The position numbers were made by a program, and so were the translations under genes. Shown here piece after piece: positions 39,109 to 43,938 of a stretch of 64,000 bases of DNA. The stretch is from Candidatus Fimenecus sp. Lineage in GTDB: Bacteria; Bacillota; Clostridia; Oscillospirales; Acutalibacteraceae. The notes under the pieces were generated by a model. The model was not told the origin of the DNA. It made no database searches and was given only the letters and a program-made list of their open reading frames with translations. The stretch covers positions 623 to 64,622 of the forward strand of contig JAZQMC010000001.1 of assembly GCA_045543095.1 (NCBI GenBank), written 5' to 3'. How positions within the stretch are numbered: the stretch's first letter is position 1; each line of letters opens with the position of its first letter.

Positions 39109-39224
39109 ATATGTACAGAATGTAAAATTTAACAAACGCTATTCCTTTTTTCACGGTTTTATGATATAATTTTTTAGTTACTATTAAGGTGTGCCTATGC
39201 AAACCCGACACAGAGGTATTAAAT

Positions 39225-41000
39225 ATGACAAGAGAAAAAATTTTCCCTATTAATGAACCTTTTTACGAAATTCCACACATTACAACCTTTAAAGAGATGA
39301 TAGATAACAGTGAAAAGCTGTATTCATCATGTCCCGCATACCGTCTTCGCAATAAAGATGGTGTGTACTATGAAGTAACATACAAAAAATTTCGTCACGA
39401 TGTTTATTATTTGGGCAACAGTCTTATTAACGACGGCTATTCCCGTGCACATATTGCGGTTGTGGGTGCAAGCTCATATAAATGGGAAGTAACATATTTA
39501 GGTGTTGCTTGCAGTAACAATGTTATTGTCCCCATTGACAAAGAGCTTATGATTGACAATATGATGGATATTCTCAAAGACTCTGATGCAATTATGCTTT
39601 TCGGCGACAAGAAATTCATCTCAGCCATCTACAAGAGAAAAGAAGAACTCCCCGAGGGCTTCAAATTCTGCTGTTTTGACAATGTTGATATTGACGGTGT
39701 TCTCAAATATGACGATTATCTTCAAATAGGCAGAAACATTTATCACGATGGCAATAAAAACCTTTACGGTGTAACCGTTGATAAGGACGCTACCTCTGCA
39801 ATTCTTTTCACATCGGGCACAACAGGTGTTTCAAAAGGCGTGTGCTTAAGCCAGTATAACATCTGCTTTGATGTTACAAGCGTTTTAGGTGTTGTTAGGG
39901 TTAACCCTACCGATAGTTGTCTTTCTGTTCTTCCCATTCATCACACCTATGAATGTACAGTCGGATTTTTAGCATTCATCGCATCGGGTGCTTGTATTTC
40001 TTTCTGCCGCGGACTTCGTTATATTGTTCAGGATATGGCAGAGGTTAAGCCTACAATTTTCGTTGCAGTTCCTTTGATGATTGAGAAATTCCACGCGAGA
40101 ATTATGAAAAAAATCAAGGCTAAGAACGCGGGCAAAGTTATTTTTAAGGTAGGTAAATACGCTTCGCGTGCCGGTCGTCTTGTTGGTACAAACAAAGTTG
40201 GCAGAAGCCTTTTCAACGAGGTTATTCAGACCTTCGGTGGCAGACTTCGTTTGATTGTTACCGGTGCTTCAGCTATTGACCCCCGTGTTGTTGAAGATTT
40301 TATCACAATGGGTATTGATATTTACATCGGTTACGGTCTTACAGAAACTTCACCGCTTCTTTCCTGCGGTAACGATAAGCTTATGCTCACAAACTCTGTG
40401 GGCACACCAATTCCGGGTGTTGAAATGAAAATTCATAACCCTGACGATTTGGGTGTTGGCGAGATTTGGGCAAGAGGACCAATGGTTATGAAGGGATATT
40501 ACAAAAATCCTGAAGCAACTGCTCAGGTGCTCACTCCTGACGGCTGGTTTAAAACCGGTGACCTTGGCGTTGTTGATGAAAACAACTGTTACAGAATCAC
40601 GGGTCGTTGCAAAAATGTTATTGTTACTAAAAACGGCAAAAACATCTTCCCCGAAGAAGTTGAACTTTATCTCAACAATAATCCATTTATCGAAGAAAGT
40701 ATGGTTTATGGTGAAGAAAGCGGAAATGATGAAACTACTGTTTCTGCACAGATTTATCCTAACTATGAGATGATTAAGGAAAACCTTAAGCGTCAAGAAT
40801 TGACTCAAGAAGAAATACGAAACTTTATTGCAGACGCAATTAAAGAAGTAAACCAGAAACTTCCCAACTATAAAAAGATTATGAAGTTTGATGTACGTGA
40901 AAACGAGTTCATCAAAACAACCACAAAGAAAATCAAGCGTCAGGCAAATATTGACGAGCAAAAAGCGATTAACGAAGAAAATAAAGAAACAAAGGAATAA
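39225..41000 (+). CDS. AMP-dependent long-chain acyl-CoA synthetase/ligase
   Basis: AMP-binding motif ILFTSGTTGVSKGV, GYGLTETS and WFKTGDLG. I prefer the ATG at 39225 over the track start at 39189. Confidence 0.85.
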   Translation: MTREKIFPINEPFYEIPHITTFKEMIDNSEKLYSSCPAYRLRNKDGVYYEVTYKKFRHDVYYLGNSLINDGYSRAHIAVVGASSYKWEVTYLGVACSNNVIVPIDKELMIDNMMDILKDSDAIMLFGDKKFISAIYKRKEELPEGFKFCCFDNVDIDGVLKYDDYLQIGRNIYHDGNKNLYGVTVDKDATSAILFTSGTTGVSKGVCLSQYNICFDVTSVLGVVRVNPTDSCLSVLPIHHTYECTVGFLAFIASGACISFCRGLRYIVQDMAEVKPTIFVAVPLMIEKFHARIMKKIKAKNAGKVIFKVGKYASRAGRLVGTNKVGRSLFNEVIQTFGGRLRLIVTGASAIDPRVVEDFITMGIDIYIGYGLTETSPLLSCGNDKLMLTNSVGTPIPGVEMKIHNPDDLGVGEIWARGPMVMKGYYKNPEATAQVLTPDGWFKTGDLGVVDENNCYRITGRCKNVIVTKNGKNIFPEEVELYLNNNPFIEESMVYGEESGNDETTVSAQIYPNYEMIKENLKRQELTQEEIRNFIADAIKEVNQKLPNYKKIMKFDVRENEFIKTTTKKIKRQANIDEQKAINEENKETKE

Positions 41001-41005
41001 GCAAA

Positions 41006-41596
41006 ATGATTTTAGGTTATGATAATACCGAAAATTTTTCAAACGGTCTTAAAGTAATGGCTTTAATGGGGTCACCCCGTAAAAGCGGATACACCGCAAA
41101 GCTTTTAGGAACATTGCTTCGCGAATTTCCAAAGGGTACAGACATTGAGATTGTGAATCTTTATGAGCTTAGCCCCGTACCCTGCAATGCTTGTGGTTAC
41201 TGCAAAGCAGTTAATGGTTGTTCAAAAAAAGACCTTGAAGAATTCTTTAAGAAATTTGAAACGGCAGATGTGATTATATTCGCAACTCCAATATATTTTA
41301 TGGGTGTTCCCGCACCGCTGAAAGCACTCATTGACCGTTTTCAGCGTTATTATGAGGCTCGTTTCCGCAGAAATGTGAAGCACCCCATTGAAAAACGCAG
41401 AAAAGCCGCTTTGATTGTTACCAGTGGCAGTGACGGTGAAATCGGCTATGAGGTAGTTAAGCATCAGCTTCTTCAGGCATTCAGCGTACTTAATATAGAA
41501 TTGGGCGGTGCAATGCTCGCCCGCAATACCGATAAATGCGGTGTTGACAAAATGGACATAGAAAAAGCAAAATCACTTTATAGGAGCGTGAGATAA
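41006..41596 (+). CDS. flavodoxin-fold NAD(P)H-dependent FMN reductase / iron-sulfur flavoprotein (Isf)-like
   Basis: GSPRKSGYT flavodoxin-like loop plus the compact Cys motif CNACGYCKAVNGC. An internal start at 41057 is possible. Confidence 0.7.
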   Translation: MILGYDNTENFSNGLKVMALMGSPRKSGYTAKLLGTLLREFPKGTDIEIVNLYELSPVPCNACGYCKAVNGCSKKDLEEFFKKFETADVIIFATPIYFMGVPAPLKALIDRFQRYYEARFRRNVKHPIEKRRKAALIVTSGSDGEIGYEVVKHQLLQAFSVLNIELGGAMLARNTDKCGVDKMDIEKAKSLYRSVR

Positions 41597-41908
41597 ATGT
41601 CAGTTACAAAAGTTACTCTTGAAAACTTTGCACAGGAAGTGCTTAAAAGCGAAAAACCGGTACTTGTTGATTTTTATGCGGATTGGTGCGGACCTTGTCA
41701 GATGATGGCACGCGAAATTGAAGAATTCGCAGAAGAAACAACAAAAGTCAATGTTTGCAAAATTAATGTTGACGAATCAACAGACCTTGCGGTAACCTTT
41801 GGCGTTATGAGTATCCCAACAGTTCTTCTTTTTGAAAACGGTCAGGAAACAAAACGTTTTGTTGGTGCTAAAGAAAAAGACCAGATTGCAGAATTCTGCG
41901 GTGAATAA
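41597..41908 (+). CDS. trxA: thioredoxin
   Basis: 103 aa with active site WCGPC. Confidence 0.95.
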   Translation: MSVTKVTLENFAQEVLKSEKPVLVDFYADWCGPCQMMAREIEEFAEETTKVNVCKINVDESTDLAVTFGVMSIPTVLLFENGQETKRFVGAKEKDQIAEFCGE

Positions 41909-41922
41909 AGCACAAATAAGTA

Positions 41923-41950
41923 AAGGGGACTTTTACAGTCCCCTTTTTTC
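41923..41950 (+). terminator. intrinsic terminator after trxA
   Basis: Stem AGGGGAC/GTCCCCT followed by TTTTTT. Confidence 0.75.
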
Positions 41951-42114
41951 TATGTTTTTTGACAAAAAATAAAGTGTCTTTCAGACACCCAACATATTTA
42001 TAATATCAAAGATTTTAAGAAATGTCAATAGATTTTCAAAACTTTAATGAGCAAAATACACAAAATCTGCGAAATAAATAATAAAAAAGTGTTAACTTTG
42101 TACAATTTTACATA

Positions 42115-42143
42115 TTGCAATCTGTGTTTTTTCGTGTTATATT
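42115..42143 (+). promoter_or_regulatory. orphan near-consensus promoter TTGCAA-17-TGtTATATT
   Basis: -35 at 42115-42120 and an extended -10 at 42135-42143. 7-bp inverted repeat TCTGTGT/ACACAGA (42121-42127 and 42148-42154) brackets the -10. No protein gene lies downstream. Confidence 0.5.
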
Positions 42144-42149
42144 ATAGAC

Positions 42150-42562
42150 ACAGAAAGGAACTGGTGATACCAATGTACAGGTAAAAAACCAAAGGCTCAA
42201 AAAATAAAGCTTAGTTTAAAAGATTAAAACAGTGTGGCAAGCAGCACAGACGAAAGGTAAGTTTTTAAAAGAAAAACAAATTTATAATAGATTAAATGCT
42301 TGCAAACTAAAGTTTATTTTTTAAAAAGAGCCGACCTTACAAAAAGCCTTCAAAAATAAAGTTTCGAAACATGAAAGGGTCTCGCTTTTCGAGAATTATG
42401 ATGACTGTAAAAGTGTTGAACGGAATGAAAAAAGAGTGAAGGCAATTTTAAGAAAGAGAGGTAAATAAAAAGATGTTAGATATCAAGAGTGAACAGAAGT
42501 AACCCCCCGGTCCGTGAAAGGCGTGTAAAGAAACGTCGACCTTGGGGGTTACTTCTTTTTTT
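42150..42562 (+). ncRNA. candidate A-rich non-coding transcript of about 410 nt (unknown family)
   Basis: Bounded by the promoter above and a 13-bp GC-stem terminator. Contains only 3-22-codon ORFs. Carries internal direct and inverted A-rich boxes. Confidence 0.3.
42495..42562 (+). terminator. strong intrinsic terminator (extended stem-loop)
   Basis: AGAAGTAACCCCC (42495-42507) pairs with GGGGGTTACTTCT (42544-42556), with an inner GGTC/GACC, followed by T6. Confidence 0.7.
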
Positions 42563-42618
42563 ATGCGTTTTTTTAATTTGTGATTATTAGTTCGTCCTTA
42601 TGGGACGATTTTTTATTT

Positions 42619-43938
42619 TCAGTTGAATTTAGGCAAGTAATCACCGTGAGCAACAATCAAATCATCAACCATTTTCTTGATTGTATCAATATCAAGCTCA
42701 CTGCCTGTGTGTGGGTCAAGCATTGCAGCTTGGTAGATATGCTCTTTCTTACCTGTTACTGCTGCCTCGATTGTTAAGAGCTGAACATTGATGTTTGTCA
42801 TGTTCATTGCGGCACACTGCACGGGTAATGCACCCACGTGGCAGGGATGAACACCATAGCCGTTTACAAGGCAAGGCACTTCAACACAAGCATTTTCGGG
42901 CAAATTTGTAATAAGATGACCTGTATTTAATACATTACCGCCAATTTGATAAGGATTACCTGTTACCATTGCTTCCATAATTCTTGATGCATATTCTTCT
43001 GAACGCTGGTGCTCTTTAACACCTTTTTGGAGCATTTCAGCATATTCCTTTTTCCATCCCTCAATTTGATTTACGCAACGGCGTGGATATTCGTCAAGCG
43101 GAATGTTGTATTTTTCAATGAGTTCGGGATATTTACTCTTTATGTAGAACATATTATACTCAGCATTATGCTCACTTGATTCTGTGCAGTAATAACCAAA
43201 ATTCTTAATATAGTCCATTCTCACTTTATCATCTGCGTCGGGTTTAGCCATATATTCGTCAACTCTCGACTTTATTTCGGGGTACAAGTCAACACCGTTT
43301 TTGTCTTTGATTTCAAGAAGCCACGCCATGTGGTTGATACCTGCAATAAGCTCTTTTCTGCCGTCAAGCTTATCTTCCATATTAAGTTTTTTGAGCAACC
43401 ATTTTGAACAACCCTGAACACTATGGCAAAGACCAACAGTTTTAATCGGTGTATATCTCTGCATATAACCCGTAAGCATTGCCATTGGGTTAACATAGTT
43501 TAAGAAAAGTGCATCGGGACAAACCTCTGCCATATCATCAGCAAAATCTTTCATAACGGGAATTGTGCGAAGTGTACGCATAATTCCACCAATACCAAGA
43601 GTATCGCCGATTGTCTGTCTTAATCCGTATTTTTTGGGCACTTCAAAGTCGATAATTGTACAAGGGTCATAAAGACCAACCTGAATGGCATTTACTACAA
43701 AATTTGCACCGCGAAGTGCATCTTTTCTATTTTCAACGCCAACATAGCACTCAATTTTGCCATAGCCACCTTTTGCAGTTCTCATTGCCTCAAGAATTGT
43801 ACGGCTTTCTTCAAGTCTTTCTCCATCAATATCATAAAGTGCAAAGACGCTGTCACGAAGTGCCTCTGTACACATACAGTCGCCAATAACATTTCTTGCA
43901 AAAACAGTACTACCTGCTCCCATAAAAGTAATTTTCAT
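42619..43938 (-). CDS. melA: GH4 family alpha-galactosidase/alpha-glucosidase (MelA-like)
   Basis: 439 aa. N-terminal Rossmann MKITFMGAGSTVFARNVIGD closely resembles MelA. Also contains CHSVQG. Confidence 0.82.
   Translation of the reverse strand: MKITFMGAGSTVFARNVIGDCMCTEALRDSVFALYDIDGERLEESRTILEAMRTAKGGYGKIECYVGVENRKDALRGANFVVNAIQVGLYDPCTIIDFEVPKKYGLRQTIGDTLGIGGIMRTLRTIPVMKDFADDMAEVCPDALFLNYVNPMAMLTGYMQRYTPIKTVGLCHSVQGCSKWLLKKLNMEDKLDGRKELIAGINHMAWLLEIKDKNGVDLYPEIKSRVDEYMAKPDADDKVRMDYIKNFGYYCTESSEHNAEYNMFYIKSKYPELIEKYNIPLDEYPRRCVNQIEGWKKEYAEMLQKGVKEHQRSEEYASRIMEAMVTGNPYQIGGNVLNTGHLITNLPENACVEVPCLVNGYGVHPCHVGALPVQCAAMNMTNINVQLLTIEAAVTGKKEHIYQAAMLDPHTGSELDIDTIKKMVDDLIVAHGDYLPKFN

What the first reader, a model, noticed from the sequence alone, without database searches (positions are those of the whole stretch)
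41951..42618. Orphan promoter-to-terminator unit of about 410 nt with no credible ORF: candidate novel A-rich ncRNA
**Seen in the sequence:** the 710-bp gap between convergent trxA and the GH4 gene is the longest non-coding stretch in the window.
- **Promoter:** a near-consensus extended -10 promoter TTGCAA-17-TGtTATATT lies at 42115-42143. It is bracketed by the inverted repeat TCTGTGT/ACACAGA (42121-42127 and 42148-42154), which looks like an operator.
- **Terminators:** about 350 nt downstream is a 13-bp GC stem (42495-42507 with 42544-42556, inner GGTC/GACC) followed by T6. A second hairpin plus T-run follows at 42588-42616.
- **ORFs:** only micro-ORFs exist between promoter and terminator. 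These are MYR; a 22-codon MKGSRFSRIMMTVKVLNGMKKE with no SD; and a 9-codon MLDIKSEQK (42473-42502), preceded by GAGAGG, whose stop lies inside the terminator stem.
- **Repeated box:** an A-rich box occurs three times. The copies are GGCTCAAAAAATAAAGCTTAGTTT (42194-42217); its inverted complement AAACTAAAGTTTATTTTTT..GAGCC (42304-42332); and a second direct copy GCCTTCAAAAATAAAGTTTCG (42346-42366). The middle arm can therefore pair with either flanking copy, giving mutually exclusive helices.
- **SD-like motifs:** four exact GAAAGG motifs (42153, 42252, 42373, 42516) plus three near copies are spread along the transcript.

**Inference:** a stand-alone regulatory or sponge-type RNA, or a micro-peptide gene with an attenuator-like 3' end. 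I cannot assign it to any RNA family I know from memory.
Basis: partly seen in the sequence, partly recalled or inferred. Interest (0 to 1): 0.6.

Follow-up and report, generated by a model that had tools for sequence, protein, structure and literature searches.

The report
Orphan gut-Clostridia RNA with tiny ORFs
The gap holds an unannotated, self-contained RNA gene, conserved in well over a hundred species of gut Clostridia, whose most conserved parts are a three-codon and a nine-codon reading frame arranged like antibiotic-sensing leaders, yet with no gene to control.

Summary
The 710-bp trxA/GH4 gap is the longest ORF-free stretch in the window. It holds a discrete module of about 657 bp (41960-42616).

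**Distribution**
- At least 119 species carry it, all gut MAGs of Oscillospirales type. The window's genus is probably Ca. Fimenecus.
- A structure model also finds it in other orders of Clostridia.
- No Rfam family matches, and it is unannotated in cultured Vescimonas fastidiosa.

**Anatomy**
- Two back-to-back promoters.
- The leftward promoter makes only a hairpin transcript of about 30 nt.
- The rightward promoter makes a purine-rich RNA of about 413 nt, starting with an extended Shine-Dalgarno and a three-codon ORF (MYR).
- The middle is folded and covaries.
- The RNA ends in a Shine-Dalgarno-led nine-codon ORF, MLDIKSEQK, whose stop codon lies inside the terminator stem.

**Conservation across the family**
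- 148 of 168 mini-ORFs are exactly three codons.
- 152 of 155 distal ORFs are exactly nine codons.
- Neighbouring genes vary: the downstream gene is co-oriented in 73 loci and convergent in 60. So this is a stand-alone gene, not a leader.

**Reading**
My best reading is a translated, ribosome-sensing regulatory RNA. Its mechanism and targets are untested.

Two earlier notes of this scan flagged look-alike units in other genomes.

The parts
41962..41990 (-). Terminator of the leftward micro-transcript. Hairpin GGGTGTCTGAAAGACAC (41990-41972), then a T-run (41971-41962).
   Evidence: One search lists it as a minus-strand terminator-like site and folds it. The stem covaries among relatives (GGGTGTC/GACACCC, GGGCATC/GATGCCC, GGGCGTC/GACGCCC). 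A hairpin plus T-run follows the divergent promoter in 100 of 121 family members, giving a median predicted transcript of about 30 nt.
42000..42028 (-). Divergent sigma-70-type promoter: TTGACA, 17 nt, TGaTATTAT (11 of 12 consensus positions, extended -10).
   Evidence: It is present at a fixed 74-86 nt from the rightward -35 box in 124 of 132 units. The commonest -35 boxes are TTGACA, TTGACT and TTTACA; the commonest -10 is TGATATAAT.
42029..42114 (.). Conserved spacer between the two promoters. It includes ACAAAATCTGCG (42060-42071) and the imperfect palindrome AACTTTGTACAATTTT (42094-42109) abutting the rightward -35 box. These are candidate regulator sites.
   Evidence: The blocks are near-invariant in 17 genus members. 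An ATTTCTGCG-like block recurs in other families. No regulator was identified.
42115..42143 (+). Promoter of the long RNA: TTGCAA, 17 nt, TGtTATATT (extended -10).
   Evidence: The pattern TTGnnn-17-TGnTAnnnT was found in the expected place in 138 of 157 units.
42150..42562 (+). Predicted primary transcript of about 413 nt, purine-rich (A 42%, G 21%). Read-through form ends at about 42614.
   Evidence: The ends are inferred from the promoter and the terminators. MFE is -96.6 kcal/mol, z = -4.86 against shuffles.
42153..42184 (+). 5' ribosome-loading module. GAAAGGA (42153-42159) and GGTGAT (42163-42168) are both complementary to the 16S 3' end. Then ATG TAC AGG TAA follows (M-Y-R-stop, 42173-42184).
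   Evidence: Of 168 such SD..CCNATG units in the family, 148 have exactly 3 sense codons and 17 have 2. The stop is TAA in 145. The amino acids vary: MYR, MNR, MYK, MRK, MEK and others. There are one to four tandem copies per RNA. The first ATG lies 22-30 nt after the -10 box.
42194..42332 (+). Folded middle domain. A long helix (42194-42217 with 42304-42332) encloses the helix GCAAGCA (42237-42243) / TGCTTGC (42297-42303) and the conserved block ATAATAGAT (42285-42293).
   Evidence: On the 22-sequence alignment A1 the long helix is 90% paired with 4 doubly changed pairs. GCAAGCA/UGCUUGC switches to GCAAACA/UGUUUGC in relatives. ATATAGAT-like blocks recur across orders.
42380..42394 (+). Conserved small hairpin TCTCG-CTTTT-CGAGA.
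   Evidence: Near-invariant within the genus. Other clades have TTCTC-N4-GAGAA or ATCTC...GAGAT at the same relative place.
42452..42502 (+). Second ribosome site and nine-codon ORF. Extended SD GAAAGAGAGG (42452-42461), then ATG TTA GAT ATC AAG AGT GAA CAG AAG TAA (MLDIKSEQK, 42473-42502).
   Evidence: 152 of 155 units have exactly 9 sense codons. Stops are TAA 78, TGA 64 and TAG 10 at a fixed position. Observed synonymous changes are TTA to CTA/CTG, ATC to ATT, AGT to AGC and CAG to CAA. Distant members keep the peptide with different codons, for example GTG AAA CTA GAC TTT AAG AGC GAA CAG AAG TGA, or read MVEPKSEEN.
42492..42562 (+). Intrinsic terminator 1. The outer stem (42492-42507 with 42544-42559) contains the last two sense codons and the stop of the nine-codon ORF. 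The inner hairpin is GGCGT-GUAAAGAA-ACGTC (42520-42537). T7 lies at 42556-42562.
   Evidence: Seven pairs carry compensatory changes, and the helices are 94-100% paired. In 143 of 153 units the stem starts 1-7 nt (mostly 4-5) upstream of the stop codon.
42592..42614 (+). Back-up terminator 2: TCGTCCTTATGGGACGA plus T6.
   Evidence: It is conserved within the genus. A second perfect-stem terminator lies within 110 nt in 48 of 153 units.

Best explanation
**What is there (shown).** Positions 41960-42616 are one self-insulated gene module with two back-to-back promoters.
- The leftward promoter makes only a hairpin RNA of about 30 nt.
- The rightward promoter makes a stand-alone RNA of about 413 nt. 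It carries three things:
  1. At its extreme 5' end, an extended Shine-Dalgarno and a three-codon ORF.
  2. A folded, clade-specific middle.
  3. A second Shine-Dalgarno with a conserved nine-codon ORF (MLDIKSEQK). Its last codons and stop are part of the 5' arm of the terminator.

**How it most likely works (inferred).** It is a translated, ribosome-sensing regulatory RNA, in effect an 'orphan attenuator'.
- Ribosomes load on the 5' mini-ORF. There they protect the 5' end, and they are held when initiation or early elongation is inhibited. This is how the three-codon uORFs of cplR, vmlR and lmo0919 behave.
- Ribosomes translating or stalling on the nine-codon ORF invade terminator 1. The conserved K-S-E puts Ser in the penultimate position, which favours phenicol and oxazolidinone arrest.
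- The translation state would therefore set the RNA's 3' end (terminator 1 or terminator 2) and its stability.
- The output would act in trans, because no cis gene is conserved.

**Status of each step.**
- Conservation, geometry and independence from neighbours are shown.
- Ribosome engagement is strongly inferred from comparative patterns.
- Stalling, the signal sensed and the trans target are hypotheses.
For: **Family and independence**
- Found in 19 of 36 genus members plus other families.
- 43 of 401 genomes sampled from the order, with a reversed-pattern control of 0.
- 12 of 151 genomes sampled from the class, using a covariance model.
- None among the genomes of other classes in the 151-genome phylum sample; its only hit besides the window was one same-class genome.
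- The downstream neighbour is co-oriented in 73 loci and convergent in 60. The upstream neighbour splits 70 to 60.
- Neighbouring gene families vary.
- Within the genus the unit sits at two different loci: MATE-unit-ABC exporter in most species, and trxA-unit only in the window and its closest relative.
- The adjacent ABC exporter has its own promoter, leader ORF and terminator.

**Ribosome engagement**
- Mini-ORF length is fixed at 3 codons in 148 of 168 cases while the residues vary. G at -10 is 99% conserved, the stop is TAA in 145 of 168, and tandem copies occur.
- The distal ORF is fixed at 9 codons in 152 of 155 units. The three stop codons interchange while the paired stem co-varies.
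- 6 of the 9 possible synonymous states are observed, against 15 of 54 non-synonymous states.
- Distant members keep the peptide with different codons.
- The stop-in-stem geometry holds in 143 of 153 units.

**Structure**
- z = -4.86.
- 83% of cells are paired, against 41-47% in slid controls. 35 pairs have double changes, against 9-18.

**Analogy from the literature**
- Three-codon uORFs MRI, MIN and MK[L/Q] sense PLSA antibiotics through stalling and anti-termination (PMC10201436).
- Chloramphenicol and linezolid arrest ribosomes when Ala, Ser or Thr is penultimate (bioRxiv 10.1101/2021.06.17.448903).
Against: - There is no expression, ribosome-profiling or toeprint data.
- I found no conserved antiterminator structure linking the 5' mini-ORF to the terminator about 300 nt away.
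- A second terminator follows in many members (48 of 153), so read-through of terminator 1 has no obvious consequence.
- No trans target emerged from complementarity searches in the own genome.
- The near-invariance of the ORF at synonymous sites (TTA 155/157, GAT 157/157) points to an extra RNA-level constraint that this model does not explain. That sample was partly fixed by the search pattern.
- The leftward hairpin transcript of about 30 nt has no role in the model.
Confidence: 0.42

Rival explanations
1. It is a micro-protein gene. The product that matters is the free nine-residue peptide MLDIKSEQK acting in trans. The rest is a long 5' UTR whose SD and mini-ORF merely stabilise the mRNA, and the terminator overlap is incidental.
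For: The peptide is conserved at amino-acid level across orders with different codons. Synonymous states are enriched. The length is fixed at nine codons. A strong extended SD is conserved.
Against: Nine-residue hydrophilic cytoplasmic peptides with trans functions are essentially unprecedented, and such a peptide would be short-lived (general knowledge). The last two residues vary: Q/E/H/A/R and K/N/R/I. The strictly kept stop-in-stem geometry, the conserved blocks in the middle and the tandem mini-ORFs are not needed for a peptide gene.
Confidence: 0.2
2. It is a structured non-coding RNA that binds a protein or base-pairs with targets. The two ORFs are only ribosome-binding devices that protect the RNA from 5' exonucleolytic decay, in the manner of STAB-SD or the ermC leader.
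For: There is significant folding and covariation in the middle. Several sequence blocks are conserved across orders: CACGGCGGTG, ATATAGAT, TTCACCTTTTGC and the TTCTC/GAGAA hairpin. The ORF is near-invariant at nucleotide level, even at synonymous sites.
Against: A protective device does not explain a conserved nine-residue sequence kept with different codons. Nor does it explain a stop codon kept inside the terminator stem. The middle is not alignable between clades. The usual partners CsrA and Hfq are absent. No target complementarity was found.
Confidence: 0.22
3. It is a cis-acting leader or attenuator of a downstream gene, or the orphaned remnant of one, for example of a drug-efflux or ribosome-protection gene.
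For: The architecture (SD-led tiny uORF, then a leader peptide overlapping a terminator) is that of resistance-gene leaders. In 27 loci an ABC exporter pair follows on the same strand, and in 24 a MATE pump precedes.
Against: The downstream gene is convergent in 60 of 133 loci, including this window. A second terminator follows in 48 of 153 units. Where the ABC exporter follows, it has its own promoter, and in several loci also its own leader ORF and terminator. The unit is intact and under constraint in more than 150 genomes, which a remnant would not be.
Confidence: 0.08
4. It is a small mobile or selfish module, or a type I toxin-antitoxin-like pair: a divergent small RNA plus a peptide mRNA.
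For: The distribution is patchy: 19 of 36 in the genus, and 0 of 26 in other genera of the family. Some genomes have two copies, including a tandem pair. The unit sits at different loci within one genus. The divergent small-RNA and mRNA layout recalls tisB/istR and shoB/ohsC (from memory).
Against: The peptides are hydrophilic and only 3 and 9 residues long, so they are not membrane toxins. There is no systematic complementarity between the ~30-nt RNA and the long RNA (mean z -0.24). There were no hits on 2.9 million viral contigs, and the only 'plasmid' hit is an 861-kb replicon. No terminal repeats or recombinase were seen.
Confidence: 0.05

Closest known systems
Three-codon uORF attenuators of ARE-ABCF resistance genes: cplR (MRI), vmlR (MIN), vmlR2 (MK[L/Q]) and lmo0919/vgaL (PMC10201436)
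   Same: A strong SD and a 2-4 codon ORF sit close to the 5' end of a transcript that ends at an intrinsic terminator. The ORF length is conserved more than its sequence. Those uORFs work by holding a ribosome when PTC-targeting drugs block early elongation.
   Different: No resistance gene, or any conserved gene, follows here. The mini-ORF is about 300 nt from the terminator with no detectable antiterminator. It can be tandemly repeated. A second, nine-codon ORF overlaps the terminator instead.
Nine-codon leader peptides of inducible chloramphenicol-resistance genes (cat-86, cmlA). This comparison is recalled from memory, and the peptide strings were not found in the searchable library.
   Same: The ORF has nine codons. 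A basic residue, then a small hydroxyl or Ala residue, then an acidic residue (K-S-E here) places Ser in the penultimate position. That is the context that favours phenicol and oxazolidinone arrest. A hairpin begins at the end of the ORF.
   Different: There the hairpin hides the ribosome-binding site of the resistance gene (translation attenuation). Here it is a transcription terminator with nothing to unmask.
Dual-function small RNAs (B. subtilis SR1/SR1P, S. aureus RNAIII/hld, E. coli SgrS/SgrT) and the attenuator-derived rnTrpL/peTrpL pair of Sinorhizobium (from memory)
   Same: A stand-alone or released small RNA also encodes a small peptide. rnTrpL/peTrpL links a leader peptide and its terminated leader RNA to responses to translation inhibitors, acting in trans.
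   Different: The ORFs here are far shorter (3 and 9 codons). No base-pairing target is known. The unit is not derived from any operon leader in the genomes examined.
5' mRNA stabilisers of Bacillus (cryIIIA STAB-SD; stalled ribosome in the ermC leader) and two- or three-codon 'minigenes' (lambda bar) (from memory)
   Same: A GAAAGGAGG-like sequence lies within a few nucleotides of the 5' end. A ribosome bound there blocks 5'-to-3' decay. Minigenes are SD-led 2-3 codon ORFs.
   Different: Those belong to mRNAs of real proteins or to phage sites. Here they head a conserved chromosomal RNA gene with no protein.

Membership tests
Any Rfam 15 family (including ROOL, raiA, 6S, tmRNA, T-box, C. difficile sRNAs) | Score at or above the family's gathering threshold | tested here: not met
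   The whole window gives 0 hits. A permissive scan of 41850-42700 gives only sub-threshold noise, at most 24 bits against cut-offs of at least 39. Eleven diverse family members give no hit on the unit. The genome's true tmRNA is elsewhere, at C13:65035-65387 with 168.5 bits.
ARE-ABCF-type uORF transcription attenuator | SD-led uORF of 2-4 codons in the 5' leader | tested here: met
   Here the ORF is 42173-42184. Across the family, 165 of 168 are 2-3 codons long.
ARE-ABCF-type uORF transcription attenuator | Intrinsic terminator plus an alternative antiterminator controlled by ribosome occupancy of the uORF | tested here: inconclusive
   The terminator is present and covaries. No conserved alternative pairing was found, and the only candidate switch helix fails its controls.
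ARE-ABCF-type uORF transcription attenuator | Co-oriented regulated gene immediately downstream | tested here: not met
   The downstream gene is convergent in 60 of 133 loci, including this one. Neighbouring gene families vary.
Phenicol-type translation-attenuation leader (cat/cmlA) | Short leader ORF with a stall context: Ala, Ser or Thr penultimate | tested here: met
   Ser6-Glu7 is conserved: Ser in 155 of 157 units and Glu in 151 of 157. KSE is kept in MVEPKSEEN. Actual stalling was not tested.
Phenicol-type translation-attenuation leader (cat/cmlA) | Hairpin that sequesters the RBS of a downstream resistance gene | tested here: not met
   The hairpin is followed by a T-run and often by a second terminator. 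No RBS or gene lies within it.
Dual-function small RNA | Own promoter and terminator, independent of neighbours | tested here: met
   by sequence and comparative evidence only.
Dual-function small RNA | Demonstrated translation of the ORF and a base-pairing target | not testable with these tools
The complementarity search found nothing convincing.
Type I toxin-antitoxin | Small hydrophobic toxin peptide and an antisense RNA complementary to its mRNA | tested here: not met
   The peptides are MYR and MLDIKSEQK. RNAduplex of the ~30-nt RNA against the long RNA gives a mean z of -0.24 with scattered sites.
CsrB/RsmZ-type or Hfq-dependent sponge RNA | The partner protein is encoded in the genome | tested here: not met
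   CsrA (PF02599) and Hfq (PF17209) were not found in the 97%-complete genome, while the control genomes were positive.
Classical amino-acid leader-peptide attenuator (trpL/hisL type) | Run of codons for the regulated amino acid, and a biosynthetic operon downstream | tested here: not met
   There is no repeated codon in MLDIKSEQK and no conserved operon downstream.

The most novel reading that the evidence does not exclude
This would be a free-standing ribosome-stalling sensor: an 'orphan attenuator' gene. Its tiny ORFs would report inhibition of the peptidyl-transferase centre or of early elongation, for example by antibiotics from gut competitors or by an endogenous metabolite. The report would be made through the RNA's own stability and 3' end. 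The RNA, or its nine-residue peptide, would then act on distant targets. That would make it the first ribosome-based sensor uncoupled from any cis-regulated gene, and it would be widespread in dominant gut Clostridia.
Probability: 0.25. Interest if true: 0.85.

Novelty: new variant of a known kind. Interest (0 to 1): 0.7.

Why it matters
Oscillospirales are among the most abundant and least tractable gut bacteria, and almost nothing is known about their RNA regulators.

This unit is a compact, strongly constrained gene that annotation pipelines miss entirely. Nothing is annotated at the site in RefSeq for Vescimonas fastidiosa.

Its design takes the two hallmark parts of antibiotic-sensing leaders, a three-codon uORF and a short arrest-like peptide overlapping a terminator. 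It uses them without any gene to control. If the ORFs do sense ribosome state, this separates 'sensing by stalling' from cis regulation and gives a testable new class of trans-acting translation-stress reporter.

Even on the dullest reading, it adds one of the shortest conserved coding frames known, and a new RNA family for Rfam.

The fixed three-codon length with free sequence also bears on what very short ORFs do to ribosomes, an open question. Other notes of this scan describe unrelated orphan sRNAs headed by an SD and a mini-ORF, so the theme may be general.

Tried and rejected
1. **Known RNA family.** Rfam scans at gathering and permissive thresholds, on the window and on 11 relatives, found nothing.
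3. **Operator.** The left arm of the TCTGTGT/ACACAGA repeat is not conserved.
4. **22-codon ORF.** Its ATG and frame are lost in relatives.
5. **Switching helices.** The alternative helix between the middle arm and the third box is no better than slid or shuffled controls.
6. **Antisense pairing.** The divergent ~30-nt RNA does not pair systematically with the long RNA.
7. **CsrA or Hfq sponge.** Both proteins are absent.
8. **tmRNA-like role.** A canonical tmRNA is present elsewhere.
9. **Trans targets.** I searched the own genome for complementarity to the conserved blocks. The only notable result is a 15-nt match of the SD-to-ATG spacer to a four-copy repeat at contig ends, which is probably chance because that spacer varies among relatives.
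10. **Other mini-ORFs.** A crude SD + CCNATG + three-codon pattern found only intragenic chance hits elsewhere in the own genome, and it also missed the window's own unit.
11. **Phage or plasmid carriage.** There were 0 viral contigs. The one hit is on an 861-kb secondary replicon.
12. **Cis leader.** Neighbour orientation is near random.
13. **Pan-family structure of the middle.** The clades are too divergent for one alignment. Only clade-level covariation is claimed.
14. **Literature.** The string MLDIKSEQK gave 0 papers. The cat-86 and cmlA leader strings gave 0, so that comparison rests on memory.
Full report
**1. What is in the sequence**

The stretch between trxA (41597-41908, +) and the convergent GH4 gene (42619-43938, -) is 710 bp. 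With a crude ORF model it is the longest ORF-free gap in the window; the next is 267 bp.

- The promoter TTGCAA-17-TGtTATATT at 42115-42143.
- A long GC-rich hairpin, 42492-42507 with 42544-42559, followed by T7.
- A second terminator at 42592-42608.
- The micro-ORFs MYR (42173-42184) and MLDIKSEQK (42473-42502).
- An A-rich inverted repeat.
- Four GAAAGG motifs, where dinucleotide shuffles give 0.40 on average (P about 0.001).

The predicted RNA (42150-42566) folds much better than shuffles: -96.6 kcal/mol, z = -4.86. No Rfam 15 family matches at gathering score anywhere in the window. A permissive scan of the gap gives only noise.

**2. It is a conserved family, not a local oddity**

- A DNA search of relatives found the unit in 19 of 36 genomes of the same genus and in four other families of the order. 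It is single-copy in the own genome.
All are gut MAGs labelled Oscillospiraceae, Acutalibacteraceae, Faecousia, Ca. Fimenecus, Ca. Flemingiibacterium, Ruminococcus sp. and similar. They come from humans, ruminants and chickens.
- In an even sample of the order, 43 of 401 genomes carry the ORF within three mismatches. The reversed-pattern control gave 0. Hits concentrate in three families (16/26, 14/25, 4/19). There were none in 26 genomes of other genera of the window's own family.
- A covariance model of the 3' domain finds it in 12 of 151 genomes sampled across the class, including other orders.
- In the 151-genome phylum sample the only hits were the window itself and one same-class genome, so none came from other classes.
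- No hit in 2.9 million viral contigs.
- The single 'plasmid' hit is the 861-kb second replicon of the cultured human isolate Vescimonas fastidiosa MM35. There the unit lies between a TetR gene and spoVAC, and nothing is annotated.
- Eleven diverse members also give no Rfam hit.
- Two earlier first-stage notes of this scan (e1-2271871, e1-3218317) describe look-alike orphan purine-rich promoter-terminator units in other genomes.

**3. Anatomy that is conserved**

(a) *Divergent promoter and micro-transcript.*
- On the minus strand there is a near-consensus promoter, TTGACA-17-TGaTATTAT, at 42028-42000.
- It is present in 124 of 132 units, at a fixed 74-86 nt from the rightward -35 box.
- In 100 of 121 units it is followed almost at once by a covarying hairpin and a T-run. 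The predicted transcript has a median of only about 30 nt.
- In the window the hairpin and T-run are at 41990-41962.

(b) *Rightward promoter.* It is found in 138 of 157 units. It lies 160-620 nt (median 334) upstream of the distal ORF.

(c) *5' mini-ORF.*
- Directly after the start site come sequences complementary to the 16S 3' end: GAAAGGA, GGTGAT, or AGGAGGTAC in other clades.
- A conserved CCAATG follows, then two sense codons, then a stop.
- Of 168 such units, 148 have exactly three codons, 17 have two and only 3 are longer. The stop is TAA in 145.
- The residues vary freely: MYR, MNR, MYK, MRK, MEK, MKT, MGN and others, with Arg or Lys third in 102 of 148.
- RNAs carry one (105), two (22), three (5) or four (1) tandem copies, spaced 44-69 nt apart.
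- Chance would give a stop at exactly the fourth codon in roughly 4-7% of cases (my estimate). Length, not sequence, is under selection.

(d) *The middle.*
- It is clade-specific. All-against-all BLAST splits the RNAs into groups of 35, 17, 9, 8 and smaller.
- Short blocks recur across orders: CACGGCGGTG, ATATAGAT, TTCACCTTTTGC and a TTCTC-N4-GAGAA hairpin.
- In the window's clade, the window's minimum-energy structure projected on 22 sequences is 83% paired, against 41-47% for slid partners. It has 35 doubly changed pairs, against 9-18.
- GCAAGCA/UGCUUGC changes to GCAAACA/UGUUUGC in relatives.

(e) *Nine-codon ORF.*
- An extended SD (GAAAGAGAGG) is followed 11 nt later by the ORF.
- 152 of 155 units have exactly nine sense codons, and 108 of 140 read MLDIKSEQK.
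- The stop is TAA (78), TGA (64) or TAG (10), always at the same position. The partner strand of the stem changes with it.
- In the mismatch-tolerant search, 6 of the 9 possible synonymous single-base states are observed, against 15 of 54 non-synonymous ones.
- Distant members keep the peptide with different codons: GTG AAA CTA GAC TTT AAG AGC GAA CAG AAG TGA gives MKLDFKSEQK. Others read MVEPKSEEN, MLDIKSNRK or MKLDFKIQRK.
- This is what coding selection looks like. The near-invariance of several codons also hints at an RNA-level constraint.

(f) *Terminator geometry.* In 143 of 153 units the terminator stem begins 1-7 nt (mostly 4-5) before the stop codon. The last sense codons and the stop therefore lie in the 5' arm. 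Stem and inner hairpin covary.

**4. It is a stand-alone gene**

- The nearest downstream gene is co-oriented in 73 loci and convergent in 60. The upstream gene splits 70 to 60.
- Neighbouring gene families differ. The largest groups are an ABC exporter pair downstream (27 loci), a MATE pump upstream (24), a GH43-like gene (9) and trxA (6).
- Where the ABC exporter follows, it has its own consensus promoter. In several loci it also has its own leader ORF and terminator.
- Within the genus, the acyl-CoA synthetase, flavodoxin-like and trxA genes are syntenic in most of the loci examined. The unit follows trxA only in the window and its closest relative. Elsewhere it sits at the MATE/ABC locus.
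- The module has therefore changed place as a block.

**5. What it most likely does**

*Shown:* a constrained, insulated transcription unit whose two best-conserved features are ribosome-binding sites with ORFs of fixed, tiny length, the second one interlocked with the terminator.

*Established elsewhere:*
- Three-codon uORFs (MRI, MIN, MK[L/Q]) in leaders of cplR, vmlR and vmlR2 hold ribosomes when pleuromutilins, lincosamides or streptogramin A act. They thereby prevent premature termination (PMC10201436).
- Chloramphenicol and linezolid arrest ribosomes preferentially when Ala, Ser or Thr is the penultimate residue. The conserved K-S-E of the nine-codon ORF has that context.
- From memory, the cat-86 and cmlA leaders are also nine codons long with K-T-D and N-A-D. 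I could not verify the strings.

*Inference:* the RNA is a translated, ribosome-sensing regulator.
- A ribosome at the 5' mini-ORF protects the 5' end. It dwells there when early elongation is blocked.
- A ribosome reaching or stalling on codons 5-9 of the distal ORF covers the 5' arm of terminator 1. This changes termination or 3'-end protection.
- The result is read out in trans, since no cis gene is conserved.

I give this 0.42. The weak points are:
- no conserved antiterminator;
- a frequent second terminator;
- no target found;
- no role for the ~30-nt leftward RNA.

**6. Rivals**

- A gene for the free nine-residue peptide (0.20).
- A structured protein- or RNA-binding ncRNA whose ORFs only stabilise it (0.22).
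- A cis leader or its remnant (0.08).
- A mobile or toxin-antitoxin-like module (0.05).

The last two are disfavoured by neighbour orientation, by the intactness of more than 150 copies, by the hydrophilic tiny peptides, and by the lack of complementarity between the two RNAs.

CsrA- and Hfq-type sponge models are excluded for this genome. A tmRNA-like role is excluded because a canonical tmRNA is present elsewhere.

**7. Novelty**

No Rfam family, no annotation and no paper in the searchable library covers it.

It combines known parts in a new way: a tiny uORF, an arrest-like leader peptide, a terminator overlap and a 5' stabiliser. It has no regulated gene and it has a divergent micro-transcript. 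I file it as a new variant of a known kind (dual-function or leader-type RNAs), not as a member of any of the families tested.

Other notes of this scan (e1-1883049, e1-831605, e1-3347840) describe unrelated orphan sRNAs headed by an SD and a mini-ORF in other phyla. I did not test them, but they suggest the theme recurs.

Noticed in passing
window 41962-42028 (minus strand): A near-consensus promoter fires straight into a terminator, giving a predicted transcript of only about 30 nt (5' AUAUGUUGGG, hairpin, U-run). This is conserved in about 100 family members. It has no complementarity to the long RNA and no evident function. In a few loci (L041, L045, L079, L121) an SD and a gene (MAIIKMI...) follow the T-run.
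   Followed up: partly
L040, L007 and L004, about 250-480 nt downstream of the nine-codon ORF: The ABC exporter pair next to the unit in many Ca. Fimenecus genomes has its own promoter, a roughly 27-30-codon leader ORF (for example MTNRWYNYRKINVNEHFCPFLQYIPFSCD) and a terminator just before its SD. This looks like a bmrB/bmrCD-type leader-peptide attenuator.
   Followed up: no
L059 and L088 (Faecousia): In these members the 5' three-codon ORF is replaced by a conserved 17-codon ORF, MTN[W/L]IGNPWFRSSRFGI. The nine-codon ORF and the terminator are unchanged.
   Followed up: no
own genome G000: C30:11365-11545, C26:42382-42578, C22:62302-62495, C8:184375-184568: A repeat of at least 190 bp has four copies, three of them at contig ends. 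It starts CAAATTTGAATTTGTCGAATTCTTTTTATTTACCTGTCATTCTGAGCGAAGCGAAGAATCTC and contains a long inverted repeat. It is probably the end of a mobile element that breaks the assembly. It holds a 15-nt complement of the unit's SD-to-ATG spacer, probably by chance.
   Followed up: partly
L035 (two matches 462 nt apart); also G299, G312, G233 and G259: Some genomes carry two copies of the unit: in tandem, a few kb apart, or on different contigs.
   Followed up: no
window 39189-41908 compared with L197-L225: The acyl-CoA synthetase, flavodoxin-like reductase and trxA genes form a block that is syntenic in most of the genus loci examined. What follows trxA differs between species, so the trxA 3' end is a rearrangement breakpoint. 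The unit is found there only in the window and its closest relative.
   Followed up: partly
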